From the NCBI GenBank assembly GCA_965202665.1, contig OZ241841.1, positions 2,176,001 through 2,240,000 of the forward strand: a DNA stretch of 64,000 bases. The letters are read 5' to 3'. Numbering within the stretch: position 1 is the first letter of the stretch; every line of letters begins with the position of its first letter. A program made the position numbers and the translations under genes. The notes under the pieces were generated by a model, which was not told the origin of the DNA, ran no database searches, and worked only from the letters and a program-made list of their open reading frames with translations. The stretch comes from Candidatus Spongiisociaceae bacterium (GTDB lineage Bacteria > Actinomycetota > Acidimicrobiia > Spongiisociales > Spongiisociaceae). This document shows positions 22,787 through 64,000 of this stretch, piece after piece.

Positions 22787-23113
22787 ATGCCTGCAGATTC
22801 AGACTACGATCCGTTGGATTACGATAGTTTGGGAGCGCGGTTGCCTGAGCATATTAGGCAGTGGCGGGATGACCCGAACCATTGGTTCAACGACCAGGAG
22901 GACAACCGGTATTGGGAGGAGTACGATCGGGACTTGATGGCTGGTCGGCGCGGCGCGGAGGTGTGGGAGGCGGCGCGTCGTATGGAGGAGGCGGGTCAGA
23001 CTACGGTGACCATCAACGGTCGGGAGTACCCGGCGGCTACCACCGCCGACTTGGAGAGAATGTACAAGGCGGCCCGAAAACGCGCCCGCGCGCAAACCGA
23101 ATCTCCTTCCTGA
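22787..23113 (+). CDS. 108-aa array protein, copy 1
   Basis: AGGAGG RBS; frame conserved in all five copies. Confidence 0.85.
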   Translation: MPADSDYDPLDYDSLGARLPEHIRQWRDDPNHWFNDQEDNRYWEEYDRDLMAGRRGAEVWEAARRMEEAGQTTVTINGREYPAATTADLERMYKAARKRARAQTESPS

Positions 23114-23140
23114 CGTTCGGTAACGATTGGAGGCGCAACG

Positions 23141-23467
23141 ATGTCTGCAGACTCAGGTTACGATCCGTTGGATTACGATGTTTTTGGGCGGCGGTTGCCT
23201 GAGCATATCAGGCGGTGGCGGGATGACCCGAACCATTGGTTCAACGACCAGGAGGACAACCGGTATTGGGAGCAGCATGACCGGGATCTGATGGCTGGTA
23301 GGTGCGGCGCGGAGGTGTTGGAGGAGATCCGTCGCATGGAGGAGGCTGGCCAGACCACGGTGACCATAAACGGTCGAGAATACCCGGCGGCGGTGCGCTC
23401 CAACATAGAGAAGTTCCGAGCCTTGGCTCGAGAACGCGAGCGTTCCCAAACCGAATCCCCTTCCTGA
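23141..23467 (+). CDS. 108-aa array protein, copy 2
   Basis: GGAGG RBS; paralog of copy 1. Confidence 0.85.
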   Translation: MSADSGYDPLDYDVFGRRLPEHIRRWRDDPNHWFNDQEDNRYWEQHDRDLMAGRCGAEVLEEIRRMEEAGQTTVTINGREYPAAVRSNIEKFRALARERERSQTESPS

Positions 23468-23495
23468 CGTTCGGTAACGATTGGAGGCGTAACCG

Positions 23496-23822
23496 ATGTC
23501 GGCAGGCTCAGACTACGACCCTTTGGAGTATGACATTTTGGGGAATCGGCTCTCCGAGGAGGAGATACGGTGGCGGTCGGACCCGAACCATTGGTTCAAC
23601 GACCAGGAGGACAACCGGTATTGGGAGGAGTACGATCGGGACTTGATGGCTGGTCGGCGCGGCGCGGAGGTGTTGGAGGAGATCCGTCGCATGGAGGAGG
23701 CTGGTCAGACCACGGTGACCATCAACGGGCGGGAGTATCCGGCGGCGGTGCGCTCCAACATAGAAAAGATACGCGCCCGAACCAGGGAGCGCGAGCGCGC
23801 CCAAACCGAATCCTCGTCCTGA
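23496..23822 (+). CDS. 108-aa array protein, copy 3
   Basis: GGAGG RBS; most divergent N-terminus. Confidence 0.85.
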   Translation: MSAGSDYDPLEYDILGNRLSEEEIRWRSDPNHWFNDQEDNRYWEEYDRDLMAGRRGAEVLEEIRRMEEAGQTTVTINGREYPAAVRSNIEKIRARTRERERAQTESSS

Positions 23823-23850
23823 CATTTCGGGAACGATTGGAGGTACAAGG

Positions 23851-24177
23851 ATGTCTGCAGATTCAGATTACGATCCGTTGGATTACGATAGTTTGGGGGC
23901 GCGGTTGCCTGAGCATATCAGGCGGTGGCGGGATGACCCGAACCATTGGTTCAACGACCAGGAGGATAACCGGTATTGGGAGCAGCATGACCGGGATCTG
24001 ATGGCTGGTAGGTGCGGCGTGGAGGCGTGGGAGGCGGCGCGTCGTATGGAGGAGGCGGGTCAGACTACGGTGACCATTAACGGTCGGGAGTACCCGGCGG
24101 CTACCACCGCCGACTTGGAGAGATGGTACGAGGCGGCCCGGAAACGCGCCCGCGCTGAAACCGAGTCTCCTTCCTGA
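23851..24177 (+). CDS. 108-aa array protein, copy 4
   Basis: GGAGGT RBS; paralog. Confidence 0.85.
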   Translation: MSADSDYDPLDYDSLGARLPEHIRRWRDDPNHWFNDQEDNRYWEQHDRDLMAGRCGVEAWEAARRMEEAGQTTVTINGREYPAATTADLERWYEAARKRARAETESPS

Positions 24178-24205: not shown

Positions 24206-24532
24206 ATGTCTGCAGATTCAGATTACGATCCGTTGGATTACGATAGTTTGGGGGCGCGGTTGCCTGAGCATATCAGGCGGTGGCGGGATGATCCGAATCA
24301 TTGGTTCAACGACCGGGAGGACAACCGGTTTTGGGAGGAGGATGACCGGGAGTTGATGGCTGGTCGGCGCGGCGCGGAGGTGTGGGAGGAGGTGCGTCGT
24401 ATGGAGGAGGCGGGCCAGACCACTGTGACCATAAACGGGCGGGAGTACCCGGCGGCGGTGCGCTCCAATATAGAAAAGATACGCGCCCGAACTAGGGAGC
24501 GCGAGCGCGCCCAAACCGAATCTTCGTCCTGA
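24206..24532 (+). CDS. 108-aa array protein, copy 5
   Basis: GGAGGT RBS; paralog. Confidence 0.85.
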   Translation: MSADSDYDPLDYDSLGARLPEHIRRWRDDPNHWFNDREDNRFWEEDDRELMAGRRGAEVWEEVRRMEEAGQTTVTINGREYPAAVRSNIEKIRARTRERERAQTESSS

Positions 24533-24579: not shown

Positions 24580-24942
24580 TCAGTCTGTGTCCGGCCAAAA
24601 AACGGTAGCGCCCAAAACCTGGTTCCTGTGCCAGTTGATTCTTACCCAAACCGGGCCTTCCGGTGGCTTTATGTCCGATTCTCGGGGTATGTAACCAAGT
24701 TTTTTGTCCTCGGCTTCGATATATAAGGCATCAAGATCATGCAGGTTGTAAGTCTCATATACCGCCCGCCCTGGGATAAGTCGTTTTCCATGCTCCCCGT
24801 ATAGGTCGGCGAGATTTTCCTGACGGTTCTCGAAGGTTACTCCCACCAAGTCAATGCTGTATCCTTCAACGTCGCCATCGAAACTGTCATCATCAAAATA
24901 CCCGGTTCTGACAGGATAGCCGCGCTTGGTATTTGCTTTCAT
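24580..24942 (-). CDS. Stand-alone HIRAN-domain protein
   Basis: LVGVTFENRQ ... YNLHDLDALYI ... KKLGYIPRE matches the HIRAN pattern; lower GC. Confidence 0.75.
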   Translation of the reverse strand: MKANTKRGYPVRTGYFDDDSFDGDVEGYSIDLVGVTFENRQENLADLYGEHGKRLIPGRAVYETYNLHDLDALYIEAEDKKLGYIPRESDIKPPEGPVWVRINWHRNQVLGATVFWPDTD

Positions 24943-25017
24943 ATCTTCCCATAATAGCAAACCCCGGTTTTGCTGTTGATCCGATGACGGATGATCCCCG
25001 TATAGTTTGCGGGCGGG

Positions 25018-28140: not shown

Positions 28141-29082
28141 ATGGCAGCCCGTTTGCGGTCCTATCCGAAAGTTTACACCCTGGGCCATGTGGCCTTGGAG
28201 CAGATGATGAACGAGCCGGACCTTTTGGTGGAGATCACCGAAAAGGTGGACGGCTCCCAGTTCAGCTTCGGCCTGCTGGAGGGCCGGCTGGCTTTCCGCA
28301 GCAGCGGGCAGGAGATTTTCCCCGAATCGGCCGGGAAGCTGTTTGAACCGGCGGTGGCGCAGGTGCTGTCGGTGCGGGAGCGGCTGGCCGACGGCTGGTC
28401 CTACCGGGGGGAGGCCTTTTTCCGTCCCAAGCACAACACGCTGGCCTACCAGCGGGCGCCGCGCGGCCACGTAATGCTGTTCGGGGTGGACCGGGGCTAC
28501 CAGGATTGGGCGGACGCCGCGGTGCGGGAGGAAGCGGCGGAGGAGCTGGGGATGGAGGCGGTGCCGGTGTTGCACCAGGGGCCGTTGCCGTCGTTGGAGG
28601 AGTTGCGGGGGATGCTGGACCGGGAGTCGGTCTTGGGCGGGGTGAAGGTGGAGGGGATAGTCATCAAGCAGGTCGCCAACGCGTTTTTCGACAAGGGGGG
28701 CAAGGCCTTGATGGCCAAACTGGTGTCGGAGGAGTTTGCGGAAACCCACCGGCGGGAATGGCGCAAAACCAACCAGTCCCAGAAGGAGGGCCTGGCCGAG
28801 CTGGCCGAATCGTACCGCACCGAAGCCCGCTGGCGCAAGGCGGCGCAGCATCTGTCCGAACGGGGGGATCTGGCGGGGGAGCCGCGCGACATAGGCCCGC
28901 TGATCGTGGAGGTGCGCCGGGATTTTTTGGAGGAGGAGGCGGACAACGTAAAAGAAAAGCTGTGGCGGATGTTCAAAGACCAGATGCTCCGCAAAGTAAC
29001 CGCCGGCCTCCCCGAATGGTACAAAAAAACCCTAGCGGAAGCCCAGCTCCCGCCCGCACCCCCGGAGGAGGTTGCCGATTGA
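28141..29082 (+). CDS. ATP-dependent RNA ligase (Rnl2-like nucleotidyltransferase)
   Basis: Motif I TEKVDGSQ, III YRGEAF, IIIa LFGV, IV EGIVIK, V AKLVSEEF; strong TAAGGAGGT RBS. Confidence 0.8.
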   Translation: MAARLRSYPKVYTLGHVALEQMMNEPDLLVEITEKVDGSQFSFGLLEGRLAFRSSGQEIFPESAGKLFEPAVAQVLSVRERLADGWSYRGEAFFRPKHNTLAYQRAPRGHVMLFGVDRGYQDWADAAVREEAAEELGMEAVPVLHQGPLPSLEELRGMLDRESVLGGVKVEGIVIKQVANAFFDKGGKALMAKLVSEEFAETHRREWRKTNQSQKEGLAELAESYRTEARWRKAAQHLSERGDLAGEPRDIGPLIVEVRRDFLEEEADNVKEKLWRMFKDQMLRKVTAGLPEWYKKTLAEAQLPPAPPEEVAD

Positions 29083-29193
29083 TATGAAAAGCGGGGTATG
29101 CTTGTTCCCGCAGGCGTGAGAAAGGTCGGTTGATGTCAACTTCTGCTGCGGCGCCTCCGTTGTCGCGGTTGCATGTCGTAGAAAGGATTCGAA

Positions 29194-29439
29194 ATGACAT
29201 TTACGGATAGGACACCCTCATCAGACGCTGAGGCTGTTGCGCGGGAACGGGAGCGGTGGTTTTCCGACCCCGAGGACAACGCTTACTGGGAGGAGATGCA
29301 CGCCAGCTTGGAGCGGGGCGACCCCCAGCATGCCGAGTTCTCCCGCGCCGCCGCCGAGCACATCTTGGGGAGCCTGCGCCCGGGCGAGAGGCTGGAGTTG
29401 CGTCCCGGGGAGGGCCTTTTCGTCGTCTCCGACGACTGA
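29194..29439 (+). CDS. Small acidic protein related to the tandem-array proteins
   Basis: WFSDPEDNAYWEEMHASLERG aligns without gaps to the array's WFNDQEDNRYWEEYDRDLMAG; AAAGGA RBS. Confidence 0.7.
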   Translation: MTFTDRTPSSDAEAVARERERWFSDPEDNAYWEEMHASLERGDPQHAEFSRAAAEHILGSLRPGERLELRPGEGLFVVSDD

Positions 29440-29730
29440 AACCGCCCGAGCGCAACACGCGCCGGACCGGTTCCGCGTCATCCGCTGGTCCGGAATGTCG
29501 CTGGTTCAACTCCGCCGCGATCCGCAACGCCGCCTGGGCGGGTTATACGCTATCGGGCGGACGGATTCGTCCTCCGCCGGAGGGGGCGGTAATGGCCGCG
29601 GTTAGTCGTTACCGGGTCGCCACCGTGTTATTCCGGCGGCGGAATAAACTGGCCGCCGGTCGGTTCGTCCTGGTCGGCGGTAGCGGACGGGCGGAGGGTT
29701 TTAGAAGTCGGAGCGTACTTGTCCGGTCAC

Positions 29731-30198
29731 TCAGCCACCCCCCCGCGGCTGGGGGTCGTAAATGGCCGACAAAGAACCCTCCGGTTCGTCCTTCACTACC
29801 CAGTGGACGTTGGGGATAGTTATCCGGGATAATAATTCGGTTAGCCGGTCGGTCGTTTCGGCTAGCTGGTTGGAGGTTACCGCTAGCTGTTCGGAGGTTT
29901 CACGATTAGCCCGCGCCGTTTCCCGGTTATCTTCCGTCGCCCTCCGGTTATCTTCCGTCGCCCTCCGGTTATACTCCGCCGCCCTCCGGTTGTCTTCCGC
30001 CGCCCTCCTGTTATCCCATGCCGCCGCCCATAGAGATCCGTCTATCCGAGTCGCCATTTCATCTAACCGGTCGGTCGTTTCCCGGTTCGTTTTAGCCGCC
30101 GTCCGGTTGTCTTCCGCGCTCTCCGGGCGGCGTAACCGAAATCCGTCCTTCTGTTGGTTACCGCCGTCCTCCGGCGGCCTGTTTGGTTCGTCCGTCAT
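29731..30198 (-). CDS. Coiled-coil protein with heptad repeats
   Basis: GGAGGA RBS; (E/W)DNRRA(A/T) heptads. Confidence 0.65.
   Translation of the reverse strand: MTDEPNRPPEDGGNQQKDGFRLRRPESAEDNRTAAKTNRETTDRLDEMATRIDGSLWAAAWDNRRAAEDNRRAAEYNRRATEDNRRATEDNRETARANRETSEQLAVTSNQLAETTDRLTELLSRITIPNVHWVVKDEPEGSLSAIYDPQPRGGG
29923..30016. repeat. 21-bp tandem repeat, about 4.5 copies
   Basis: Units such as CCGGTTATCTTCCGTCGCCCT, encoding the heptads on the minus strand. Confidence 0.85.
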
Positions 30199-30459
30199 AG
30201 TTCGTCCTCCGTTCGGTCGGTTTCTAACGCGTAGTCACCGTCGTTCGTCTTTCCGCCGGGGGCTCTATCCGGTTCGGGTTCGGCGGACCGAGGGTTCTAA
30301 TCCCCGCCGTCCGTTATAGTAGAGCATTAGCCGAGTTGGTGGAGTGGTGTCAAGTTGGCGGGCGTATAATTCGCCGTCCGGGGGGTCCGAACGGCGGCGG
30401 CGCGGGTGGCGTAGGCGGAGGCCCAGCTTCGGCGACGCAGCTGGCTGTTGTTCCACCAC

Positions 30460-30489
30460 TATGTCCGTTATGTCCACATCTGCTAGAGT
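30460..30489 (+). promoter_or_regulatory. Putative leaderless promoter and operator of the TA operon
   Basis: TAGAGT (30484-30489) lies 6 nt before ATG 30496; direct repeat TATGTCC at 30460 and 30469. Confidence 0.45.
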
Positions 30490-30495
30490 GACGTT

Positions 30496-30774
30496 ATGAG
30501 CAACCTACAGCAGGACCTCCAACGTAGATTCCCTCAGATAGCCGACCGTCTCCAAACTCGGGACGGCAAGCTGACTTTGTTAGACAACGGCGTACCCGTG
30601 GCCGTGTTGCTGACGCCCGCTGAAATGGAAGGTTTGGAGATCACATTGGAGTTGATGTCCGACCCCGATGCCGCTACCGAGATTCGAGAGGCAGAAGAAG
30701 CGTACAGAGTAGGCGACGTAGTTGAAGACGAAGCCAAGATTAGAGAACTCATAAGCCGCCAGTCCGGCAATTAA
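30496..30774 (+). CDS. Phd/YefM-family antitoxin
   Basis: LTLLDNGVPVAVLL...MEGLEITLELMSDP...IREAEEAYRVG; TAATG overlap with the downstream toxin start. Confidence 0.8.
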   Translation: MSNLQQDLQRRFPQIADRLQTRDGKLTLLDNGVPVAVLLTPAEMEGLEITLELMSDPDAATEIREAEEAYRVGDVVEDEAKIRELISRQSGN

Positions 30775-30902
30775 TGCAAAAATACGCACCAGCGTTTGCC
30801 CCGGCTGTTCAGCGTGCGTTGGCGGAAACGTTGCCAGAGTCTGTTGCGTTAGCGGCTGTGGATTTAATCTATGGGGATATGTCCCAAAACCCTCAGAGGG
30901 TA
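30774..30902 (+). pseudogene. Truncated RelE/ParE-family toxin (N-terminal half only)
   Basis: PAVQRALAETLPESVA.A....I.G.M..NPQRV resembles actinobacterial RelE N-termini; the expected GKPL...SARRG.YRV half is absent, replaced by the end of the R-M gene. Confidence 0.65.
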
Positions 30903-30915
30903 CATAACCCGTCAT

Positions 30916-33900
30916 CTAAATCCGATGCTCTAGTAATTGATGAACAAGGGTTTCTACCCGCAATTTCTCCGGGGTAGTTGTCAACCATTTCCGTAGTTCC
31001 CTACGCGCCACCGTTACGGAAACAGGCTTGTCCTTTGCTATTCTGCTATCTCTTATCACAGACCACTCTTCGGCGGCTTTGATACGGAGATCCCCGCCCA
31101 GAAGAGCAAGTTCCGTATGTATGGGGTCGGTATCATCATATTCTGGTATAGGCAAGCGCCATAGATGTTTTTGTAAATGGCGAGGGCCAAACTGCCCTTT
31201 GGCCATTAGAGGTTTTACCGCTTTTTCGAGGGTTTCACTATTAATTATGGCTGAAAGATAGTCCGCTTCTTCTATAGACAGGCATTCGATCCAGAATAGC
31301 GTGGTATAAATCAATGGGCTTGAATCATCCAGGACAGCTGCTGTAGGTCGCCCGGAAGAAGTGTATATTAGACGAATCTGCGCAAGATTTTTTGTCTGCA
31401 TCGTTAGTTTATTCACATAATCAATTTGATCAACTAAGTTGAGTTTGGTATCTTTACTCTTGTAGTCTTCCCATAAGTTATACATTACTTGCCAGCGTCT
31501 ACGCATTCTCTCACTCAAGGTCCTACCATCAATACCGCCAATCGACGTTTCCGAGTTGGAACGGATAATACTTTGACCCCGTTCGCTTATTGGCAAAACC
31601 ACCTTCTGTGGTTCAAGTAATATATAGGGGGCGACAGTTTCGCCTAAATGAATATCATATATATGATTTTCTTCTAAAGGCCCTGATAGTTTTTGAATTT
31701 CTGCTTGTTCAAAATTTTTCCAAGGCGATTTTTCTTGTGAACTACGATGTGGTTCAACGCGGCAAAGTCCTCTAACTAACGAGGAGTCTAGGTTAGATGT
31801 CTTTACAAAAAAGAGCACGCGTGGCACCGTGGTAGCACCTTGCGTGGCACGTCTACCATACTCAGAGTTATATTTATCTGAAGTATCTTTGTAATCAATA
31901 TAATCGTATTCGTAAGGGCCACCTTCTTTACCAAGCCAACGCTTTGTCTTGGATTTTAGTTTTTTGGCATCTGTAGAAGTTGATGTTTTGGTAGCAAAGA
32001 TAACGCAGGCGGGAACCGGGAAAAAGGTATTAGGTTCAATATTCTCCAAGTCCCAAGAATAGTCATTACTCATATCTGCACCTATGTCACCCCACTCTCC
32101 TTCTCTCCACTTAGTAAAATGACCTGCGAACAAGGCACTGTGCGGCATTACCATTCCTATTCGACCTTTATTATGCAAATACAAGTCTACGCATCGTGCA
32201 TAAAATAGTCCAGAAATATCCTGGTGAGGAGCATATCTTCCTCCTGACCATATCCTATATTGGCTGCTGCTTTGTTGTCGTAGTTCCTCGCGTAATGCGG
32301 CCTTAGTTTTGGAGTATTTTATCCAAGGAGGGTTTCCTACTATAGCATCGACCTTGCCTTCATTAGTAGATAACCAGATAGGTCGAACTAGATTGCGGGT
32401 ATAGTAGGCCCAAATATGATTGCGGCCTTCCTCGTGCAGTTCTTCCATCTGCTTTACCGTTTCTTCTAGGATATCTCGTTCCGATCCAGGTGGTATTCCT
32501 GCCTCATCTAAAGCCAGCTGTCCTTTACTAGACGATTCTATTTCAGATGCAATACTGAGCATTACATTATCAAACCAGTCACCTTGGTCAACCAGGGCAC
32601 GGGGGAATTGAAGTAACCTATGCTTATCTCCGGTTGCAGATGTTACTTCTATGGTGACCTGTGTTTCGCCTAATAGGTTTCCATTATCGGTTCGCAGTTG
32701 TAAAGAATCACCTAGATAAACTGGTATGGTAAGCTCACCTTGCTCTAGGCCAGCTTCGATAATAACATCGCGGGCGGCGGATATCCAGGTGGCTCGCGCC
32801 AGATGGACTGATACCGGATGCAGGTCTACTCCTATAATTGATTGTCGTAAGCCATTTAGAATTTTTTTAGAATCCCAATCATTTGCTTTGGCCTCTTTGA
32901 TATACTGTTGGATAGCTGCGCGTAGGAAAGTACCCGACCCGCATGATGGATCAAGGACCCGGCTACTAAGCGGTTTGGTAACTACTTCAGCTACAATCGC
33001 TTTTGCTAGCCAATCAGGAGTATAATATTCACCTAGTTGTCGGCGATCGTCATCTGGTATAACTGCCTGATAGAGCACCCGGGCAAAATCGTAATCTGCC
33101 ATACCCCAGTCGAAAGATGCTACTCTGGTAGCAAGACCATCGATCCAGTCCTTACCGTCTTCAATCTCTATCGGCCAAGCAAAAAAATCAGATTCGATAA
33201 CTCCGCGTATACCAGTGGTAGCAGACAATACTTGCCCGCCTAACAAAGCTTCAGTGTTGGAGGCAGCCTCGCTACGTATGTCTATCCCAAAAGCACTCTG
33301 CACCGCCAGCCCTACTACAGCTGATAAATAGGTATGCAAAAGGAACAATTTCTCAAGGTTGGTATTTTCCTCGACTACCTCGCCTAGTGCGGCGGCTAGC
33401 AGGTTTTTCCATAGCTCTTGCTTTACATGCAAAGAAGGATCATTTTTATGTTGATCATATAGTTGTCTAAGTTTTTCTAGGTCGTTATCGAACCATAGAC
33501 CTCTGCCCAACTTTTCCCGAACCTTTTCTTCGGTCGGTTGTAATCTTTCTTGTTCAAATATGGATAATTCATCTCTTAACCATTCGTATAGTAGCATTCC
33601 ACCCCTGTTTTCTCGTAGTTCAAATACATAAGGAGGGTGTGTCCGAACCTCCTCGACATTAGGTAGTTTTAACAACCAGTAGCGTCCGTCGGTTAGAATG
33701 CCCAACCGTCGGGGTTTGCCCTCTTTAGCGGATTCTAGCATATAGTTATCCAATTGCCTCACATATTCCCGTTTTGGATAAAATCCTGGTTTGGTACCGA
33801 TCCGACGTTTTGTTTCAATAATTAACTGAGCACTTTGCAGGTCGATGCGATCTTTTTCCCGTCGCAAATCTTCCTCGGCGGCCAGTCCGGTCGAAACGAG

Positions 33901-34047
33901 AAAGTTGCTTATAGCTGCTGTGATGTCGGCCGCGGGGGCATGTTCCGCATGCCGATCGATGATAAGTTGCACGGCCTTGCGAAATTCTTCGCCATCGGGA
34001 TCGAAGAGGTCGCCATTTTGGGAGGAGGGTATGTGTCCGTTTGCCAT
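30916..34047 (-). CDS. Type IIG-like fused restriction endonuclease / N6-adenine methyltransferase
   Basis: RIDL....IIETKRR (PD-(D/E)xK-like), GILTDGRYW, LGEYYTPDWLA, VLDPSCGSGTFL, IVGNPPW, C-terminal TRD-like region; markedly low GC. Confidence 0.88.
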   Translation of the reverse strand: MANGHIPSSQNGDLFDPDGEEFRKAVQLIIDRHAEHAPAADITAAISNFLVSTGLAAEEDLRREKDRIDLQSAQLIIETKRRIGTKPGFYPKREYVRQLDNYMLESAKEGKPRRLGILTDGRYWLLKLPNVEEVRTHPPYVFELRENRGGMLLYEWLRDELSIFEQERLQPTEEKVREKLGRGLWFDNDLEKLRQLYDQHKNDPSLHVKQELWKNLLAAALGEVVEENTNLEKLFLLHTYLSAVVGLAVQSAFGIDIRSEAASNTEALLGGQVLSATTGIRGVIESDFFAWPIEIEDGKDWIDGLATRVASFDWGMADYDFARVLYQAVIPDDDRRQLGEYYTPDWLAKAIVAEVVTKPLSSRVLDPSCGSGTFLRAAIQQYIKEAKANDWDSKKILNGLRQSIIGVDLHPVSVHLARATWISAARDVIIEAGLEQGELTIPVYLGDSLQLRTDNGNLLGETQVTIEVTSATGDKHRLLQFPRALVDQGDWFDNVMLSIASEIESSSKGQLALDEAGIPPGSERDILEETVKQMEELHEEGRNHIWAYYTRNLVRPIWLSTNEGKVDAIVGNPPWIKYSKTKAALREELRQQSSSQYRIWSGGRYAPHQDISGLFYARCVDLYLHNKGRIGMVMPHSALFAGHFTKWREGEWGDIGADMSNDYSWDLENIEPNTFFPVPACVIFATKTSTSTDAKKLKSKTKRWLGKEGGPYEYDYIDYKDTSDKYNSEYGRRATQGATTVPRVLFFVKTSNLDSSLVRGLCRVEPHRSSQEKSPWKNFEQAEIQKLSGPLEENHIYDIHLGETVAPYILLEPQKVVLPISERGQSIIRSNSETSIGGIDGRTLSERMRRRWQVMYNLWEDYKSKDTKLNLVDQIDYVNKLTMQTKNLAQIRLIYTSSGRPTAAVLDDSSPLIYTTLFWIECLSIEEADYLSAIINSETLEKAVKPLMAKGQFGPRHLQKHLWRLPIPEYDDTDPIHTELALLGGDLRIKAAEEWSVIRDSRIAKDKPVSVTVARRELRKWLTTTPEKLRVETLVHQLLEHRI

Positions 34048-34524
34048 AGTTGTGAACCTACCACAGGGAGGCGACATTTTTTGCCAGGCGGTTGGGCGGC
34101 GGGCTGTGGGGACGGAGGCTCAAAGGATTTTCTGCAGAAACCAGAGGCCGGAGGCGCCCATCCGGACGAACCCAACCGGCGTCCGCCTGTCCGCTGGGAC
34201 GTTCGGTTTCCAGCTCCGCTAACCTGCTTGTCATTTCCACACTCTTCTTTCGCAGCCGCTGTACTTGCCTGCCTCCCCACCCGTTTCCCCTGGTGCTCCA
34301 GGCCCTTACATTGTATTAGGGGTGTGACAAACCCGGGACCACCAGCTGCAGGTCGCATATGTCGGCGTTGAGGAAAGGGCTTCCAGGATGGAGGGAGGCA
34401 CCGGTCCGGGGTTCCCAGGATTTCGCATCCGCCGTCCGGCCGCGTTCCGTCCAACAGTCCTAGGTCGGCTGGGGTGGGGGGATTCGGGGGATTCGGTTGG
34501 GGAGGGAGAAAGTGGGGAGGGGGG

Positions 34525-34740
34525 TTACTCCTCTACTATGCGCCAGGGTGGGCCTTTCAGTTGTTGGCCGGGGGGCAGGTTGGCCTCGTACTGGCGGAGG
34601 GCTTCCGCCACCTCGGACGCGAACTCGCCGCGTTCGGCGTCTTCTCCTAGTTGCGCCAGCGCGGCGTCGGATGCCGGGTCGTTTGCCCAGTCGCTGGGAG
34701 CGGCGGAGATTGGGAAGCGGTCTTGTTCCATCTGGGGCAT
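34525..34740 (-). CDS. Small acidic protein, distant relative of 29194-29439
   Basis: WANDPASDAALAQLGEDAERG...AE...LPPGQQL aligns with WFSDPEDNAYWEEMHASLERG...AE...LRPGERL. Confidence 0.55.
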   Translation of the reverse strand: MPQMEQDRFPISAAPSDWANDPASDAALAQLGEDAERGEFASEVAEALRQYEANLPPGQQLKGPPWRIVEE

Positions 34741-34865
34741 TTTAGGAGCGGGGGCGTTCCGGGTGCCCGGTGGAACGGGTTGTGGAACCGGGGTCGGTTT
34801 TAGGGGTGGTAGGATGTTGGGCTGAAAGGCGGGATGGCGCCGCGGCGCCGGTTGCGCCCTGGTCG

Positions 34866-34938
34866 GCCCTCGTAGCTCAGCGGACAGAGCAGGAGCCTTC
34901 TAAGCTCTTGGTCGGAGGTTCGAATCCTTCCGGGGGCG
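34866..34938 (+). tRNA. tRNA-Arg(TCT)
   Basis: Acceptor GCCCTCG/CGGGGGC, anticodon loop CTTCTAA, T-loop TTCGAAT; CCA not encoded. Confidence 0.95.
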
Positions 34939-34966
34939 CGGGCCCGCCCACAAGCCCAAAACGCAT

Positions 34967-35045
34967 GGTGATCGTAGCTCAGTCTGGTTAGAGCGCCTGG
35001 TTGTGGTCCAGGAGGACGGGGGTTCGAATCCCCTCGGTCACCCCA
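34967..35045 (+). tRNA. tRNA-His(GTG)
   Basis: G-1, acceptor GTGATCG/CGGTCAC, loop TTGTGGT, C discriminator, CCA encoded. Confidence 0.95.
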
Positions 35046-35115
35046 CCCGCCCCCCCCCCCCCGTGGGCGGCCAAAACCCGAAAAGAAAAACCAACCTGGG
35101 AGACAAAAACTGACC

Positions 35116-41375: not shown

Positions 41376-41464
41376 GGAGGGGTCGCATAGTCCGGTCTAG
41401 TGCGCGGCACTCGAAATGCCGTAGGGGTTTTCGCCCCTCGTGGGTTCGAATCCCACCCCCTCCG
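41376..41464 (+). tRNA. tRNA-Ser(CGA)
   Basis: Acceptor GGAGGGG/CCCCTCC, loop CTCGAAA, long variable arm, T-loop TTCGAAT. Confidence 0.95.
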
Positions 41465-41489
41465 CTTTTGTCGGTGGGTGGGTGGCGAT

Positions 41490-55043: not shown

Positions 55044-55358
55044 TCAAAGAGCCAATAATGCTCTTATCGCGTCGACGCCGCGAGTCACGTTACCGTTCAG
55101 ATAGTCGCGATGGCTTTCAATCAGGGCTTCCATCTCTTCAGGATCCCCCAGTATGGAAAGGGTTTCTTCCAGCGACTCCAGGGTTTCCCGCCCCTGGGGA
55201 GACAGTCCCCCATCGACGCTTCGCGCCCGCAGAGCCGCAAGCCGGCTTTCCAGAGATTCCATTTCCCGCTGGGCGGTCAGCAGGCCGTCGTTCCGTTGCA
55301 CCCGATCAAGAAACTCCACGACCTGCTGGTCGACGGTGAGCGTTGGTTGGTTGGTCAT
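55044..55358 (-). CDS. Orphan antitoxin-like protein (YefM-type C-terminus)
   Basis: GGAGGAG RBS; ESLEETLSILGDPEEMEALIESHRDYLNG; paralog at 63756. Confidence 0.65.
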   Translation of the reverse strand: MTNQPTLTVDQQVVEFLDRVQRNDGLLTAQREMESLESRLAALRARSVDGGLSPQGRETLESLEETLSILGDPEEMEALIESHRDYLNGNVTRGVDAIRALLAL

Positions 55359-55444
55359 GTCGCTCCTCCAATATATCCGCGTCTGCCCGCCTCGCCGGGG
55401 TTGGCGGGTATAGGATAATGGTAGGTCTTCGTCAGGAGGGACGG

Positions 55445-58400: not shown

Positions 58401-58906
58401 TGATAAACACAGGGGGCTGGGTTTTTAATGATGTGCATAAGCAGTATATAGTAGGTTTGATGGCTATAGGAAAGGGTAGCGAACAATTTGGTTCCGTACG
58501 TATCAGAAATCTTTGCCGAAGTGTGAGCGATTTAGCACGAGTTGATGCTAGTAATGTGGTGCAAATAGATGAGCTTTTGGCTTGGACACCTGAAGCTCTT
58601 TTCCCTTTATTTCCTAGCACGGATGCTATTAAGGTTTTTAGAAAAATGATTAAGTACCCCAGAATAAAAAGAAGCGAGCGTCAGCGAGCGTCAGCGAGCG
58701 TCAGCGAGCGTCAGCGAGCGTCAGCGAGCGTCAGCGAGCGTCAGGTACAGCCTCTACAAGCTACCACAAATTGGAGGACAAGTCCAGTAACCGAATTACA
58801 CACAAGAAAAGACAGAAAGTATTTCTTAGGAGCAGAACTTCTTGGCGAGCATTACCCATTAGAGAACTCGAAACCACGCCCGACAGACATAGGTTCACAG
58901 CAATGA
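55445..58906 (+). CDS. Eco57I/type IIG-like adenine methyltransferase, N-terminal and catalytic part (phase-variable)
   Basis: AGGAGGG RBS; YNGGLF, FGTIYEGLL, RKSAGVYFTP, CDPAMGSGNFL, IYGID, VGNPPWEK. Confidence 0.88.
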   Translation: MIDSFAGLTGRRVSVDGAGAPAEARDLQAVMLDASFEVLLAGWDSARPPAPGKLLSLHRWRLGSQNFSLVVAVTDRQGKVWLAGPGGRDQPVGPLTESEAARMLQAALEEPSGPSAHRRIADLLKARRKDDSVPGLGGEGLFAQHYLAKVLPGQGVWRESVARARPWLCLRGMALIEAMGFSALRPVGNGCVLTDRISQGNGGGGRLGESPNAVAVLLDRVEHFDAGSTRFDASPVEYGLSLAREEQAGWLILLRGSQIRLYSAKPGVGVGSRGLTETFFELDLALLEEDKAGYLDLAFSAAALVEDGTVKQLLEGSRDYAVGLGDRLRERIYVEAIPELAVAVAKELERLDHQAGKDLARAYRITLRILFRLLFQAYAEDCGLLPYGTNEEYTKYSLKQHARDLADPPEEMFDPRSHKTWDELMLVWGVIDTGDAVMGVPAYNGGLFLSDPERSPDGALISQMRLDNAVVGHALRRLLVDVDSLGVPGPVDFRSLSIREFGTIYEGLLASSLSRADQDLTLDKKQTYVPAKAADKVEVRAGEIYFHNTSGMRKSAGVYFTPRFAVDHLLERSLVPVLRDHLKKINAMLDEDDDAGAYESFFDFRVCDPAMGSGNFLVAAIDHMAEEMTPFLRAHPIPGVTGELNRLEAAARKELGDAADQYSLDRSMLLRRQIARHCIYGIDNNDIAVELAKVAVWLHTFVPGLPMSTLDHNLVCADSLTGIESIEEAIEILDPQRNPGVVSLMRGPLEESLEESRSHLQDAAKISESTTAEIRQADKHRDRAVQVAGKAKAIFDAAVAARIGELGDLTMVEPEEIVRMSQQTEVQDRIAILNPGHMPYLFPQVFLRDPSGFDVMVGNPPWEKIKVEEHAWWGLRFPGLRGLPLVAKRERLKTLKHDRPDLVDEYEQAVTLTAELRKIISKGPYPGMGTGDPDLFKAFSWRFWKLSRDGGAVGIVLPSGVLKGKGSERWRKQVFEECCFVDLAPLINTGGWVFNDVHKQYIVGLMAIGKGSEQFGSVRIRNLCRSVSDLARVDASNVVQIDELLAWTPEALFPLFPSTDAIKVFRKMIKYPRIKRSERQRASASVSERQRASASVSERQVQPLQATTNWRTSPVTELHTRKDRKYFLGAELLGEHYPLENSKPRPTDIGSQQ
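56048..56058 (+). repeat. G11 homopolymer within the MTase gene (currently in frame)
   Basis: AAC-G11-TAGG, encoding NGGGG. Confidence 0.85.
58673..58744 (+). repeat. Perfect 10-bp tandem repeat (AGCGAGCGTC)x7 within the MTase gene
   Basis: Directly visible at 58673-58742 plus AG; no stop codon in any frame. Confidence 0.97.
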
Positions 58907-59649
58907 AAGATAACCTGTGGCCAGTCTATGGTGGACGTTCTTTTAATATTTGGTGCCCAGATACGGGTAAATATTATGCGGCAACCGACCCTGATGCTAT
59001 CACTGAGTATCTCCAAGGGAAGCGAGAGCGTAGCAGGACCAGTTTTGCTGAAATGCCGCAAGAGTGGCTTGATGATTTAGATACTCTTCCTTGTAAGCAT
59101 CCCCGTATTGCTTTTTGTGATGTTGCGAATAGTGTAGATAGTAGAACGATAATCGCGGCTCTTGTACCGCCGAATATAGTGATTACAGAAGTAGCACCAT
59201 ATCTGATATGGCCTTCAGGGGAAGTTAGCGATCAAGCCTTCCTACTAGGGGTGTTATCATCGATGATTCTCGATTGGTACGCTCGTCGCATTGTATCGAC
59301 TCATTTCAAGTTCTACATCTTTAATTCTTTGCCGGTGCCGGATGCTGATCCTGGGGATCCGGTTGTTCGGCGGGTGGTGGAGATTTCGGGGCGGTTGGCG
59401 GCGGTGGATGAGCGGTTTGCGGACTGGGCGGAGGAAGTGGGGGTGCCGGTGGGGACTTTGCAGGAAGAACCGGAGCGGTCGGACGCCATCTACGAACTGG
59501 ACGCCTGCGTGGCTTTGCTCTACGGCTTGGATGAAGACGACCTGCGAATCATCTACGAAACCTTTCACGAAACGACCGACTATTCGCAACGGCATGTGGC
59601 GGTGCTGGCCCATTTCCGCAGATGGCGGGAAGAGCGGGAACCCCTGTGA
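58903..59649 (+). CDS. C-terminal target-recognition part of the MTase (separate frame; ATGA overlap with the upstream stop)
   Basis: WPVYGGRSFNIW, PRIAFCDVANSVDSRTIIAALVP, LLGVLSSMILDWYAR, ELDACVALLYGL; frame open back to the 10-bp repeat. Confidence 0.82.
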   Translation: MKDNLWPVYGGRSFNIWCPDTGKYYAATDPDAITEYLQGKRERSRTSFAEMPQEWLDDLDTLPCKHPRIAFCDVANSVDSRTIIAALVPPNIVITEVAPYLIWPSGEVSDQAFLLGVLSSMILDWYARRIVSTHFKFYIFNSLPVPDADPGDPVVRRVVEISGRLAAVDERFADWAEEVGVPVGTLQEEPERSDAIYELDACVALLYGLDEDDLRIIYETFHETTDYSQRHVAVLAHFRRWREEREPL

Positions 59650-62600
59650 CCGCCTCCCGCAGGCATTTTCCCCCTGTTTTCGCCACCAATCGAGCCGGGA
59701 CCGAAACCCGGGCGGGGGAGCGGGTGGCGGACGAGATCAACCGGTTGCTGTCCGGGATGCGTACCCAACTGGCCGACGCCCCCCGTCTGGCCATCGCCAC
59801 CGCTTTTCTAAATACGGGCGGATATGAACTGCTGGCCGACGAACTGGAGCAGGCCCCCCGGGTGCGCCTGCTGTTGGGGGCGGAACCGGACATTTCCGCC
59901 ACCCGGCCCGTCCTGCGGCGCATATCCAAAGAGCAGATCGGGGAAGCTCTGCGGCGGCACGAGCAGTGGCTGGCCTCCGAACGGGATTTGACCGGTTTCA
60001 CCCGGGAGGCCGACCGAGCCGCCCGGCGGATGGTGAAATGGCTGCAGGCTAAAACCGAAGCGGGGGAGCGGCGGGTGGAAGTGCGCCGGTACGCGGACGG
60101 GTTTTTGCACGGCAAAGCGTTCATCACCGAGCATCCCAGCTTGCCGGCGGTGCTGGCCGGGTCGTCCAACTTCACATACGCCGGGCTGGCGTCCAACGCC
60201 GAACTCAACCTGGGATACCCGTCCGGGGAGCACACCCATCTGGTGCAGGAATGGTTCAACGAACTGTGGGAACACTCCGCCCCCTACCGGTTGGACGAGT
60301 TGTACGCCGCCCGCTGGGAACCGCACGCCCCATGGCTGATTTTCCTGCGGATGCTGTGGGAACTGTACGGCGGGCATTTTGACGAAGACGACGACCTCCG
60401 GGCCCGCACCGAACTGGGACTGACCGGTTTCCAGCGGGAAGGGGTGGCCCGCATGTTGCGCATTTTGGAGGAGCACGGCGGGGTGATCGTGGCCGACGAA
60501 GTCGGTTTGGGGAAAACGTTTATGGCCGGTGAGGTGATCAAACGGGCCGCTTCCGTCAGCCGCCAGCAGGTGCTGGTCATCGCCCCCGCCGCCCTCAAAG
60601 CCGGAATGTGGGAGCCGTTTCTGAAACAATACGATTTTCCCCGCCGGGTGGAAGTGATGTCCTACGAAGAGTTCCGCAACCGCTGGGGGGACGCGGAACG
60701 GGAAGCAATGCGCAGCCAGTTGGACGAATACGCCCTGGTGGTGGTGGACGAAGCCCACAATTTGCGCAATCCGAACGCCCAGCGCACCGAAGCGGTCAAC
60801 GCCCTGGTGGGCGGCTCCCATCCCAAACGGCTGATGTTGCTCACCGCCACCCCGGTCAACAACACCCTGTTCGACCTTCATTCCCTGGTGTCGCTGTTCA
60901 TCCGCAACGACGCAGCTTTCGCAGCCCGGGGCATCCCCTCCATCTACCAATACATAAAAACCGCCGAAGAAATGGATCAGGACGCCCTTTCCCACGAGCA
61001 CCTGTTCGACCTGTTGGATCAGGTGGCGGTGCGCCGCACCCGCCGTTTTGTCAAAAAGCACTATCGGGGCGAAAAGATCAAAGACCACCGGGGCGAGGAG
61101 AAAACCATCCAGTTCCCCCAGCCGGAGTTGAAAAGACTGGACTACGACCTTGACCAGGCGGGTCTGGAGTTGGTGGAAGCGGTCGTTTACGCGTTGGAGA
61201 ACTCCGAAGAGGACGCCCTCCGCTACGAGGAACGCCAGCGCGATCCGGACCGGTTGATGCTGGCCCGTTACACCTCCGGGGCCTACCACATGGAAGCGAA
61301 CCACGAATTCGACTATCAGGTGTCCAACGCCGGGTTGCTCCGCTCCACCCTGCTGAAAAGGCTGGAATCATCCCCCATCGCTTTGGCCAACACTTTGGGG
61401 AGAATGGTTGAATCCCATCGGGCTTTCCTGGAGGCGTTGGCGGAAGGCTGGGTGCTGGCGGGTGAAGCCCTGCGGGAATGGACCTCCTCCGATGCGGAAG
61501 ACTTCGACGAGTTTCTGGAAGGGTTGGACGACCGCGCCTCCGCCGGGGCGGACCCCGTCGACCGCTATCACGTAGCAGAATTGCGAGAAGACGTGGAAAG
61601 CGACTTGGAAATGCTGGGCCGGTTGCGGGAGCGGGTCGGGGAGGCGGCGGACGGGCCCAACCCCAAATTGGACAAGTTGCTGGAAAGGCTGGGGGAGATC
61701 GCCGCCGAAGCCTGTTTGGTCAGCCGGGACGGGGTCAGTTCGGGGAACCGGCGCAAAACCATCGTTTTCTCCAGTTTCGCCGACACCATTAAGTCGGTGG
61801 CCGAAAAGGTGTCGGTGCGGGTGGTGAACTGCGCCGACGACGATCCGCTGGCCGACTTCCGGCAACGGATAGCGAAGCCGGTGTTCGGGGCCAAAAGGGG
61901 ATTCAATCCGGAAACGCGGGCCCGCATTATCGCCGGGTTCGCCCCCGAAACGGCGGGCGGGAGCAAAGGGGGCGAAGATAAATACGACCTGCTGTTCACC
62001 ACCGACATCCTGTCGGAAGGGGTGAACCTGCAACAGGCGGGGCGGATCATCAACTACGACCTGCCTTGGAATCCGATGCGGGTGGTGCAACGGCACGGGC
62101 GCATCGACCGGATCGGTTCTCTGCACAGCCGGGTGTTCATCGACTGCTTCTTCCCTTCCGCCCATCTGGACCGGCTGCTGGGGCTGGAGGCGAGGCTGCG
62201 CCGCAAACTGGCTTTGGCGGACGCGGCGGTGGGAACCGGGCAGGTGTTGCCCGGATTCGAATCGGGCGACGCGAAAGTGTTCAGCGACATTGAACGGTTG
62301 CGGTGGGAAGACGCCGGTTTTCTGGAAGAACGGGGAGGGGCGGCGGCCCTGTCCGGCGAAGAATACCGGCGGCGGTTGCGGGCGGCCGCCGCCCACGCCT
62401 CGGCCGAAATGGAACAAGCGCGGGCGTTGCCCTACGGCTCCGGCTCCGGTTTCATCAACCCCCGTTTCGCCGGCTCCGGGTACGTGTTCTGCATCCGGGT
62501 GGGGGAGGGGGGAGGCCACCCGCCCCGGTTCCGGTTTGTTCCCGTCGACGGCGACTGGGGTCCCCTCCTGGACGGCGACGACCGGCCGGTTGTGAAATCG

Positions 62601-63074
62601 GATACGCTGACCGCGCTGGTGGCCGCCGACCCGGGGGATGAAACCGCCGCCCGGGAATTATCCGAGGTGGCCTACGACCGGGCTTTCGACGCCTGGGAGG
62701 CGGCCCGGGAGGACGTATACCGGGAGTGGATGCGCCTCACCGATCCCAGCAACCTGCGTCCCGACGTCCCCAAGGCGTTGCGGGAAGCCACCGAGATGGT
62801 GCACAAACATGGGGATGTCCTGACTACGGAAGACAGGGATGATCTGGTGAAACGGCTCAACACCCGCCCCAGCCGCCGCATAGTGAAAACCATCCGGGAG
62901 CTGGTCAGATCCGAGGAGGAGGCGCCGGCCGCCAAAATCCGGCGGTTGCGCCAGTTGGTGGAAGAAGCCGGCTTGCAACCCCCTGAAATCCCCGACCCCC
63001 TGCCGGAAATCACCCGGGACGACATCCACCTGGTGGCATGGACCGCCGTCAACGTCCCGGCCAAGTACAGTTAG
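59646..63074 (+). CDS. SNF2-type helicase with N-terminal PLD-like nuclease domain
   Basis: LHGKAFI...GSSNFT...NAELN; ADEVGLGKT, DEAH, LTATP, SEGVNLQ, QRHGRIDRIG; GTGA overlap with the upstream gene. Confidence 0.92.
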   Translation: MTASRRHFPPVFATNRAGTETRAGERVADEINRLLSGMRTQLADAPRLAIATAFLNTGGYELLADELEQAPRVRLLLGAEPDISATRPVLRRISKEQIGEALRRHEQWLASERDLTGFTREADRAARRMVKWLQAKTEAGERRVEVRRYADGFLHGKAFITEHPSLPAVLAGSSNFTYAGLASNAELNLGYPSGEHTHLVQEWFNELWEHSAPYRLDELYAARWEPHAPWLIFLRMLWELYGGHFDEDDDLRARTELGLTGFQREGVARMLRILEEHGGVIVADEVGLGKTFMAGEVIKRAASVSRQQVLVIAPAALKAGMWEPFLKQYDFPRRVEVMSYEEFRNRWGDAEREAMRSQLDEYALVVVDEAHNLRNPNAQRTEAVNALVGGSHPKRLMLLTATPVNNTLFDLHSLVSLFIRNDAAFAARGIPSIYQYIKTAEEMDQDALSHEHLFDLLDQVAVRRTRRFVKKHYRGEKIKDHRGEEKTIQFPQPELKRLDYDLDQAGLELVEAVVYALENSEEDALRYEERQRDPDRLMLARYTSGAYHMEANHEFDYQVSNAGLLRSTLLKRLESSPIALANTLGRMVESHRAFLEALAEGWVLAGEALREWTSSDAEDFDEFLEGLDDRASAGADPVDRYHVAELREDVESDLEMLGRLRERVGEAADGPNPKLDKLLERLGEIAAEACLVSRDGVSSGNRRKTIVFSSFADTIKSVAEKVSVRVVNCADDDPLADFRQRIAKPVFGAKRGFNPETRARIIAGFAPETAGGSKGGEDKYDLLFTTDILSEGVNLQQAGRIINYDLPWNPMRVVQRHGRIDRIGSLHSRVFIDCFFPSAHLDRLLGLEARLRRKLALADAAVGTGQVLPGFESGDAKVFSDIERLRWEDAGFLEERGGAAALSGEEYRRRLRAAAAHASAEMEQARALPYGSGSGFINPRFAGSGYVFCIRVGEGGGHPPRFRFVPVDGDWGPLLDGDDRPVVKSDTLTALVAADPGDETAARELSEVAYDRAFDAWEAAREDVYREWMRLTDPSNLRPDVPKALREATEMVHKHGDVLTTEDRDDLVKRLNTRPSRRIVKTIRELVRSEEEAPAAKIRRLRQLVEEAGLQPPEIPDPLPEITRDDIHLVAWTAVNVPAKYS

Positions 63075-63156
63075 GGGCGGCCGCCGGGGGATGACCGACT
63101 CGGAAATCCGGGCGGACGCCGAACTAGCCGCCGCCGTTGCACGGGCGGGGTAGATA

Positions 63157-63651
63157 ATGGGGTGGATAATGATGTCGCAGGACGACCGGATACGACTCCC
63201 GGACGGGCGGGTAGCGGACGCTACCGGATGGCGGGCGGACATGGAACCGGTTCCGAACCGACCGGGCCGGGTGTCGTTGCTCGTTTCCCGTCCGCAGGAC
63301 GGCGACCCCGTTCGTTACCGAATCATCCGAGCGGACGACCAGGACGGGGAATCATTCCAGGCGTCGGCGGCGGAATCATTAGCCGACCGGATCGCCGCCG
63401 GTCGGATAGACGACATAGTTCGTATACGAACCGCCGGGCGCCCTGGTCGTCCCCGAACGGCCAGCGGCCTGCGCCTGGAAACCCTGGATGACCGGGATGG
63501 CGTCATCCGCATCCCCGCCCTCCGAATCACCGACCGAATCCGCCACCGGCGGGAACGACCGGCGGGCGTCCGCCCAGAACGGCGGGACCCGAGCCGGGCG
63601 GAACGCCGTAACATTAGGCGGGTAATCCGGCAAACCCGGCGGGGCAGATAA
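63157..63651 (+). CDS. Hypothetical Arg-rich protein, atypical composition
   Basis: 164-aa ORF; start uncertain; no motif recognised. Confidence 0.35.
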   Translation: MGWIMMSQDDRIRLPDGRVADATGWRADMEPVPNRPGRVSLLVSRPQDGDPVRYRIIRADDQDGESFQASAAESLADRIAAGRIDDIVRIRTAGRPGRPRTASGLRLETLDDRDGVIRIPALRITDRIRHRRERPAGVRPERRDPSRAERRNIRRVIRQTRRGR

Positions 63652-63755
63652 TCAACATCAACAACCAAAACCCGTCACCAACCTCCCGGCCAAGTACAGG
63701 CAACCCCTACGCCCCCCTCAAATCCGAAGAGCCGCTAAAGACCGTAAGGCATGCG

Positions 63756-64000
63756 TTAACAGGTTCGGAGAGCCTTTACGGCGTCGGTTCCTTCGATAAA
63801 GTCGCCGTTCAGGTAGTCGCGGTACCCTTCAAACAAGGCTCCCATCGCCTCGGGATCCTGCAGGATGGAGAGGGTTTCTTCCAAAGATTCCATGTCTTCC
63901 CGCTCTTGGGCAGTCAGGCCGTTGACGCTACGCGCTTGCAATTCTGCGAGGGCGGCCTGCAGAGAGGCGATCTCCTGCGGGTCGCTCAACTTGCCGTTGT
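63756..64000 (-). CDS. Orphan antitoxin-like protein, paralog of 55044-55358 (5' end probably beyond window)
   Basis: LAELQARSVNGL...ESLEETLSILQDPEAMGALFEGYRDYLNG. Confidence 0.65.
   Translation of the reverse strand, partial: NGKLSDPQEIASLQAALAELQARSVNGLTAQEREDMESLEETLSILQDPEAMGALFEGYRDYLNGDFIEGTDAVKALRTC

What the first reader, a model, noticed from the sequence alone, without database searches (positions are those of the whole stretch)
22787..64000. Ten dispersed small genes share an antitoxin-like 21-residue helix motif, with no intact toxin visible
Seen, ungapped alignment: array x5 WFNDQEDNRYWEEYDRDLMAG; 29194 WFSDPEDNAYWEEMHASLERG; 34740(-) WANDPASDAALAQLGEDAERG; 30496 LMSDPDAATEIREAEEAYRVG; 55358(-) ILGDPEEMEALIESHRDYLNG; 63756(-) ILQDPEAMGALFEGYRDYLNG. 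All have D4 and G21, and most have P5 or E6, E13 and a hydrophobic residue 18. From memory, this spacing matches the toxin-binding C-terminal helix of Phd/YefM antitoxins (LL.sP.....L.E....le.G) and of some AbrB-type ones (WFW.PEWQ..E.EAD.DI.AG). Only 30496 has a recognisable DNA-binding N-terminus, and the only toxin in the window is truncated. Inference: an arsenal of orphan neutralising domains against incoming RelE/ParE/YoeB-type toxins, with the array as its diversifying arm. Short acidic helices can match by chance.
Basis: inference. Interest (0 to 1): 0.75.

Follow-up and report, generated by a model that had tools for sequence, protein, structure and literature searches.

The report
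Amplified antitoxins behind overlooked RelS-like toxin

Summary
The ten genes and their 21-mers are real, but they form two groups, and 'no intact toxin' is wrong. An intact 125-aa ORF (X, 22397-22774) ends 12 bp before the array. Its model best matches RelE/BrnT-fold toxins (Z 5.2-7.1), and its family matches an independent RelS-like profile (E 4.6e-5). Seven genes (array, 29194, 34740) belong to a family Y found only in this genus among genomes searched; all 6 X-like genes in the genome are directly followed by a small acidic partner, 4 of 6 in multiple copies. Three genes (30496, 55358, 63756) are Phd-derived: one RelE partner is truncated, two have none. The cross-group motif match is weak (array vs Phd tail E 0.77). 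The motif is among the most conserved parts of the array (pN/pS 0.19), not a diversifying one. The genome duplicates readily (93 local duplications); in 7 of 8 duplicated toxin–antitoxin loci partner copies outnumber toxin copies. Best reading: a divergent toxin-first RelS/BrnT-like module with an amplified antitoxin lacking a recognisable DNA-binding domain, plus leftover orphans. Toxicity and binding are untested; X lacks the RelS H10 equivalent. Earlier scan notes reported a duplication-prone sponge symbiont elsewhere.

The parts
22397..22774 (+).
   Evidence: AF2 pLDDT 82; top structural matches 7vd7_A Z7.1, CdiA-CT 5i4q Z6.0, BrnT 3u97 Z5.5, RelE 1wmi Z5.2; family profile vs RelS-like profile E 4.6e-5; dN/dS 0.20 vs G001; no gaps in 4 of 4 runs laid
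22787..23113 (+). Y copy 1 (108 aa), putative antitoxin, 12 bp after X, GGAGG ribosome site
23141..23467 (+). Y copy 2 (108 aa)
23496..23822 (+). Y copy 3 (108 aa)
23851..24177 (+). Y copy 4 (108 aa)
24206..24532 (+). Y copy 5 (108 aa)
29194..29439 (+). Y-family gene (81 aa); its X gene is absent here but intact upstream of the orthologue in G001
   Evidence: non-array Y vs array profile E 1.4e-5
30496..30774 (+). Phd/YefM-type antitoxin (92 aa)
   Evidence: PF02604 E 5.7e-7, 29.7 bits vs cut-off 29.8
30774..30977 (+). Truncated RelE/ParE-type toxin; similarity stops near 30902, where the converging restriction gene ends
   Evidence: 57% identity over 35 aa to the RelE of locus L021, which is PF05016 E 2.8e-8
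30916..34077 (-). Low-GC type IIG restriction-modification gene (context; abuts the truncated RelE)
   Evidence: PADLOC REase_MTase_IIG E 1e-66; GC 46-50%
34525..34740 (-). Y-family gene (71 aa), no X upstream, next to tRNA-Arg
55044..55358 (-). Phd-derived orphan (104 aa): Phd C-terminal helices kept, N-terminal beta-hairpin region replaced by a helical insert; head-to-head with a type IIG + Snf2-helicase cassette
   Evidence: Phd C-terminal HMM E 5.7e-16, hhalign 98.7%; no RelE downstream
63756..64000 (-). Paralogue of 55358 (95 aa, start 43 bp beyond the window), part of an older duplicate of the cassette's promoter end
   Evidence: E 3.3e-14; 70% DNA identity over 510 bp

Best explanation
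The array is likely the antitoxin half of a toxin-first, RelS/BrnT-like toxin–antitoxin operon: the intact upstream gene X is predicted to fold like a ribonuclease toxin, and the five copies behind it would each supply an acidic helix that covers its active face. Shown: gene order, fold class, profile similarity, purifying selection, recurrence of the pairing. Inferred: X is or recently was a translation-blocking RNase; Y binds it; Y has no recognisable DNA-binding domain, so copy number plus strong ribosome sites would raise the antitoxin:toxin ratio in place of self-repression. The copies arise from this genome's general habit of tandem duplication, are shuffled by recombination, and persist because extra antitoxin is harmless or useful while extra toxin is purged. 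29194 and 34740 are Y genes whose X was lost or left behind. 30496, 55358 and 63756 are a separate Phd lineage whose RelE partner was cut or lost. The shared 'D...G' helix is mostly a generic acidic antitoxin helix, not one family signature.
For: X model matches BECR toxins in its 8 best rows and 7vd7_A, a toxin–antitoxin complex, heads the Foldseek list too. An HMM of RelS-like proteins from other Actinomycetota, built without any X sequence, returns three X paralogues as its top three hits among 27,221 ORFs of this genome (E 0.02, 0.25, 1.9); profile-profile E 4.6e-5, 0 of 40 shuffles. All 6 X-like genes are directly followed by a small acidic gene, 5 of them by Y-HMM hits; random placement never reached 5 in 20,000 trials. 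G001 repeats the pairing at 4 of 4 X loci. Each array copy has GGAGG; none is visible before X. dN/dS 0.13-0.23 for X, Y and Phd-type genes, as for three housekeeping controls. RelI neutralises RelS through acidic residues of a helix laid across the sheet (PMC13284704, section 23). Of 93 local duplications, I read 8 as TA loci; in 7 the complete partner copies outnumber complete toxin copies.
Against: Window X has Arg where RelS has the essential H10, no Arg at the R69 spacing, and a pI of 6.3, so it may be weak or inactive. Z scores under 8 are common for unrelated folds (tool note). X misses Pfam BrnT and DUF4258 (one homologue E 0.2), and the narrow X alignment matches the RelS-like profile only weakly (E 0.0035-0.19). 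8 of 13 Y loci have no detectable X. The Y HMM was seeded partly with X-adjacent genes, which inflates the adjacency test. In G001 the X before the array is frameshifted while the array persists. Y matches no known antitoxin family.
Confidence: 0.55

Rival explanations
1. Orphan arsenal (first reader, restricted): the toxin-less genes, above all 55358 and 63756, are kept to neutralise incoming RelE-type or X-type toxins (anti-addiction).
For: 55358/63756 have no adjacent RelE in either genome yet show dN/dS 0.16-0.23 and a 14-member cluster of uniform length; no PF05016 match in G000 or G001; full Phd+RelE relatives exist in the same family; 8 of 13 Y loci lack X. Anti-addiction is a proposed role of orphan antitoxins (PMC10790755, passages).
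Against: Does not apply to the array. No X or Y relatives were found in viral contigs, and one X paralogue found none in plasmids. Orphan Y genes could act on the genome's own X paralogues. 55358 travels with the promoter end of a restriction cassette and may be its regulator.
Confidence: 0.17
2. Specificity array: the mosaic copies differ outside the core helix so that together they cover several X variants (paralogues or strain alleles), like an immunity-gene island.
For: Copies are mosaics of alternative N-terminal, middle and C-terminal segments (segment identity 51-100%); many further allelic combinations exist in databases; six diverged X genes coexist.
Against: No segment has pN/pS above 1; the motif is at 0.19; X is not a secreted-type protein by sequence and was near-invariant in 4 of 4 runs; mosaicism follows from ordinary unequal crossing-over.
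Confidence: 0.13
3. Not a working toxin–antitoxin pair: X is a detoxified descendant (possibly metal-binding through its conserved His/Cys residues) and Y has another job; the array is neutral duplication.
For: H10-to-Arg change, near-neutral pI, conserved H82, H98, C100, C104 in the narrow family; frameshifted X at two loci; 93 local duplications show a strong mutational bias.
Against: Four X relatives keep the Lys/Arg-His or His at the RelS position; one RelS-like protein elsewhere also has Arg there; all copies keep open frames, ribosome sites and purifying selection.
Confidence: 0.15

Closest known systems
RelS–RelI (Rv2663–2664) of Mycobacterium tuberculosis, PMC13284704, and RelS-like actinobacterial toxins
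   Same: Toxin-first two-gene order; BrnT-like fold; profile similarity of the X family to RelS-like proteins; conserved C-terminal His (H98 = H64); small acidic partner.
   Different: X has a ~22-residue N-terminal extension, Arg for H10 and C-terminal cysteines; Y shows no match to the RHH-type partner's DNA-binding domain and no HTH family hit; the partner is present in five tandem copies.
BrnT–BrnA of Brucella abortus (PDB 3u97; PF04365)
   Same: Fold match Z 5.5 over 70 residues; toxin-first order (PMC11980606, table passage).
   Different: No PF04365 match in the genome; BrnA has a C-terminal RHH domain, Y has none detected.
Phd/YefM–RelE modules of related Acidimicrobiia (loci L021, L022, L024, L027)
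   Same: 30496, 55358 and 63756 match their antitoxins; 30774 matches the start of their RelE.
   Different: RelE is truncated or absent; 55358/63756 carry a helical insert in place of the N-terminal beta-hairpin. The seven Y genes are not Phd members.
Orphan antitoxins / anti-addiction modules (PMC10790755, passages)
   Same: Four toxin-less genes here, under purifying selection.
   Different: The array is not orphan; no target on a mobile element was found.

Membership tests
RelS/BrnT-like BECR toxin (gene X) | BECR (RelE-like) fold | tested here: met
   8 best rows are BECR toxins, Z 4.3-7.1; moderate Z, so supported by class consistency, not by score alone
RelS/BrnT-like BECR toxin (gene X) | Sequence-profile similarity to RelS-like proteins | tested here: met
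   broad X profile E 4.6e-5, 67 columns, 0 of 40 shuffles; narrow profile only E 0.0035
RelS/BrnT-like BECR toxin (gene X) | Match to curated BrnT or DUF4258 model | tested here: not met
   one homologue DUF4258 E 0.2
RelS/BrnT-like BECR toxin (gene X) | K9-H10 pair needed for toxicity | tested here: not met
   window X aligns K36-R37; His kept in paralogues at genome 1068432, 407640, 1868172 and in G001's X upstream of the 29194 orthologue
RelS/BrnT-like BECR toxin (gene X) | H64 on the last strand | tested here: met
   H98 invariant in 11 of 11 rows
RelS/BrnT-like BECR toxin (gene X) | Toxin gene first, partner directly behind | tested here: met
   12-bp gap; 6 of 6 X-like genes in G000, 4 of 4 in G001
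RelS/BrnT-like BECR toxin (gene X) | Toxicity and RNA cleavage | not testable with these tools
   needs expression assay
RelI- or BrnA-type antitoxin (Y genes) | HTH or RHH DNA-binding domain | tested here: not met
   no such family at E<=1; full RHH-partner profile aligns only its N-helix, E 0.05-0.4
RelI- or BrnA-type antitoxin (Y genes) | Homologous toxin-binding acidic helix | tested here: inconclusive
   N-helix of RHH-type partners vs Y E 0.003-0.13; vs the partner of paralogue 1068432 E 7e-5
RelI- or BrnA-type antitoxin (Y genes) | Binds and neutralises its toxin | not testable with these tools
Phd/YefM antitoxin (30496, 55358, 63756) | Homology to Phd of Phd–RelE pairs | tested here: met
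   (E 7e-7 to 6e-16)
Phd/YefM antitoxin (30496, 55358, 63756) | Intact N-terminal DNA-binding domain (PF02604) | tested here: inconclusive
   30496 29.7 bits vs cut-off 29.8; 55358/63756 no Pfam hit, hairpin region replaced
Phd/YefM antitoxin (30496, 55358, 63756) | Adjacent intact toxin | tested here: not met
Phd/YefM antitoxin (the seven Y genes) | Homology to Phd C-terminal helix | tested here: not met
   Phd C-terminal HMM finds no Y gene at E<10; array E 0.77; non-array Y only E 0.01, probability 4%
AbrB/MazE-type antitoxin | AbrB swapped-hairpin domain | tested here: inconclusive
   no such Pfam or NCBIfam family listed for any Y protein scanned; the recalled WFW motif family was not fetched

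The most novel reading that the evidence does not exclude
A lineage-specific RelS-like toxin family whose antitoxin has shed DNA binding and is controlled by tandem copy number instead of autorepression; the same one-sided amplification acts on Phd, VapB-like and Y antitoxins across the genome, disarming addiction modules, with the mosaic and orphan copies cross-neutralising paralogous or incoming toxins.
Probability: 0.2. Interest if true: 0.68.

Novelty: new variant of a known kind. Interest (0 to 1): 0.42.

Why it matters
It turns an apparent orphan arsenal into a testable cognate pair: an unannotated, strongly diverged relative of the recently described RelS ribonuclease with an unnamed partner family. 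The genome offers a natural test of how chromosomes tame toxin–antitoxin modules, since antitoxin-like genes are amplified and toxins mostly are not, across three toxin classes. TA genes are reported as enriched in sponge Actinobacteriota (PMC11706023, one passage), and families like X and Y are invisible to the Pfam, NCBIfam and PADLOC scans run here.

Tried and rejected
Complex prediction of X with Y was unavailable, so there is no binding evidence either way. ESM Atlas: one search gave only sub-0.9 leads; further ones were unavailable. No X or Y relatives in JGI metagenome contigs or viral contigs; one X paralogue had no plasmid match. Array protein found in 2 of 61 genomes, 34740 in 2 of 29, the X profile in 2 of 29 family genomes; phylum-wide weak hits that I opened (2 of 3, 6 of 15) looked like chance. 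The full-library profile search with X returned 7 proteins. PDB sequence searches gave nothing relevant. The Y model was low confidence (pTM 0.37) and had no fold match at Z>=5. No paper on PDB 7vd7 was found, so its toxin family is known only by the entry title. No RNA holder listed. Promoter and terminator hits were near shuffle levels. Assembly artefact rejected: copies are 74-93% identical and unique junction contigs occur at flank depth in runs of four studies, although none spans the array. Lack of cover of 30970-34695 in one run is not taken as absence.
Full report
Setting. The window lies in a 2.77-Mb single-contig genome, G000. The only same-genus genome, G001, is titled a Candidatus Spongiisociaceae bacterium, and 5 of the 17 runs holding the array stretch are labelled sponge metagenome, 4 marine metagenome, the rest coded.

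Observation. The ten ORFs and 21-mers are present. All-against-all BLAST already splits them into array/29194/34740 (group Y) and 30496/55358/63756 (group P). Within groups the motif is significant; across groups it is reached by 0.4-13% of 5379 background chunks. A Phd C-terminal HMM from seven relatives finds the three P genes (E 7e-7 to 6e-16) and no Y gene; profile-profile it gives E 0.77 against the array and E 0.01 (probability 4%) against non-array Y, about the same as the N-terminal helix of RHH-type antitoxins gives (E 0.013). The motif is therefore a generic acidic helix ending in glycine, with at most a faint link between groups.

Group P. 30496 scores 29.7 bits on PF02604 (cut-off 29.8). 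30774 is the first third of a RelE of the kind in locus L021 and stops where a low-GC type IIG restriction gene ends. 55358 and 63756 align with full Phd proteins over 86 columns (98.7%), with a helical insert replacing the N-terminal hairpin region. Neither has a toxin downstream, nor has the G001 orthologue; PF05016 finds nothing in 2 of 2 genomes. They stay under purifying selection (dN/dS 0.16-0.23, synonymous sites near saturation) and sit head-to-head with the start of a type IIG + Snf2 helicase cassette or duplicates of that start. These are true orphans; their job is unexplained.

The missed gene. ORF X (22397-22774) ends 12 bp before array copy 1. With 12 aligned homologues it folds at pLDDT 82. 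The eight best structural matches are BECR-fold toxins: 7vd7_A (Z 7.1, rmsd 3.6, 79 aligned), CdiA-CT (6.0), BrnT (5.5), RelE (5.2, 4.8), colicin D (4.7, 4.3), MqsR (4.6); the tool notes that Z under 8 is common. For an independent test I fished RelS-like genes from 301 Actinomycetota genomes with a recalled short motif, kept by eye 8 of 30 loci, whose invariant K9, H10, H63, R68 match the RelS residues K9, H10, H64, R69 reported in PMC13284704 (abstract, passages, section 22 and part 1 of section 23 read). Twelve more came from 12 of 23 loci of an RHH-type partner (two loci from unpublished genomes left out; two rows duplicate earlier ones). This profile matches the broad X profile at E 4.6e-5 (0 of 40 shuffles) and ranks three X paralogues first among 27,221 ORFs of G000. 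Against the narrow X alignment it is weaker (E 0.0035). Window X keeps the H64 equivalent but has Arg for H10, which is essential in RelS, and is not basic (pI 6.3).

Pairing. G000 has six X-like genes: 22397 (window), genome 2567095, 2584152 (frameshifted), 407640 (one ORF with its first partner), 1068432 and 1868172 (the last was first noticed by eye). Each is directly followed by a small acidic gene, in 5, 1, 1, 2, 2 and 2 copies (the last two-domain). An iterated Y HMM finds 20 ORFs at 13 loci, 5 with X upstream and 8 without; the partner of 1068432 is not hit by it and resembles the N-helix of RHH-type partners (E 7e-5). In G001 all 4 X loci have partners; X is intact before the 29194 orthologue and frameshifted, at homopolymer runs that may be sequencing errors, before the array orthologue. 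So 29194 became orphan by loss of X.

The array. Five 355-bp units, 74-93% identical, are mosaics of alternative segments. pN/pS is 0.35 overall, 0.19 in the motif, 0.0 in the hairpin, 0.49-0.88 elsewhere; each copy has GGAGG. Junction contigs appear at flank depth in 4 of 4 runs from four studies, and X is covered by one gap-free contig in each, with a single missense difference in one; one run may be the source sample. G001's copies carry internal domain duplications instead. Three of four runs laid on 28900-35100 carry extra sequence just upstream of 29194, in two of them recognisably the tail of another copy.

Genome-wide habit. Self-comparison finds 93 local duplications, most unrelated to toxins. 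I read 8 as TA loci: four X loci, Phd x2 + VapC, an unnamed partner x5 complete + one complete PIN gene, the same partner x2 + PIN-like gene, and a MazF locus. In 7 the complete partner copies outnumber complete toxin copies; the MazF locus duplicated both. Others may have escaped my reading. Amplified partners occur at 4 of 6 X loci against 1-2 of 8 X-less Y loci, a small sample.

Mechanism. Most likely (0.55) X-Y is a toxin-first type II module in which Y's acidic helix (residues 37-51 in a low-confidence model) lies across X's sheet as RelI alpha-1 does on RelS, and duplication bias filtered by selection has raised antitoxin dosage. Binding and toxicity are inferred, not shown. Rivals: orphan protection for the toxin-less genes (0.17), a detoxified non-TA pair (0.15), a specificity array (0.13).

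Novelty. Six literature searches (listings and abstracts, plus passages of PMC11980606, PMC10790755, PMC11706023) showed no tandem antitoxin array behind a BECR toxin; the library is partial and supplements were not read. X and Y match no curated family.

Noticed in passing
window 24580-24960 (-): Lower-GC ~119-aa gene between the array and the aminotransferase, replaced in G001 by a short HNH-like ORF; by eye HIRAN-like (recalled motif), no Pfam, NCBIfam or PADLOC hit.
   Followed up: partly
window 28141-29082 (+): RNA ligase gene (PF09414 E 1e-16) directly upstream of the 29194 locus, where G001 has an intact RNase-fold X gene; 90% identical in G001. Possible repair partner or coincidence.
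   Followed up: partly
window 55343-63074 (+): Type IIG restriction-methyltransferase split into two overlapping ORFs near 58673-58906, where a 10-bp unit repeats 7.2 times, followed by an HKD+Snf2 helicase; G001 has one 1225-aa ORF at a different site. Possible slippage switch.
   Followed up: partly
window 29731-30198 (-): 155-aa gene with a 21-bp internal repeat that varies between strains.
   Followed up: no
L045:1407-5076 (G000 2471407-2475076): Array of five complete and two partial copies of an unnamed acidic gene interleaved with one complete and two broken PIN genes; a two-copy relative at 2542658.
   Followed up: partly
L042:1140-1965 (G000 407640-408465): X and its first partner form one 194-aa ORF, followed by a second partner copy.
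   Followed up: partly
L089:439-2172 (G000 1866439-1868172, -): Most RelS-like-looking X with two downstream genes of two Y domains each, beside a type I restriction locus.
   Followed up: partly
window 41400-54974 (+): 4524-aa repeat protein with C-terminal SLH-like end, inserted at tRNA-Ser.
   Followed up: no
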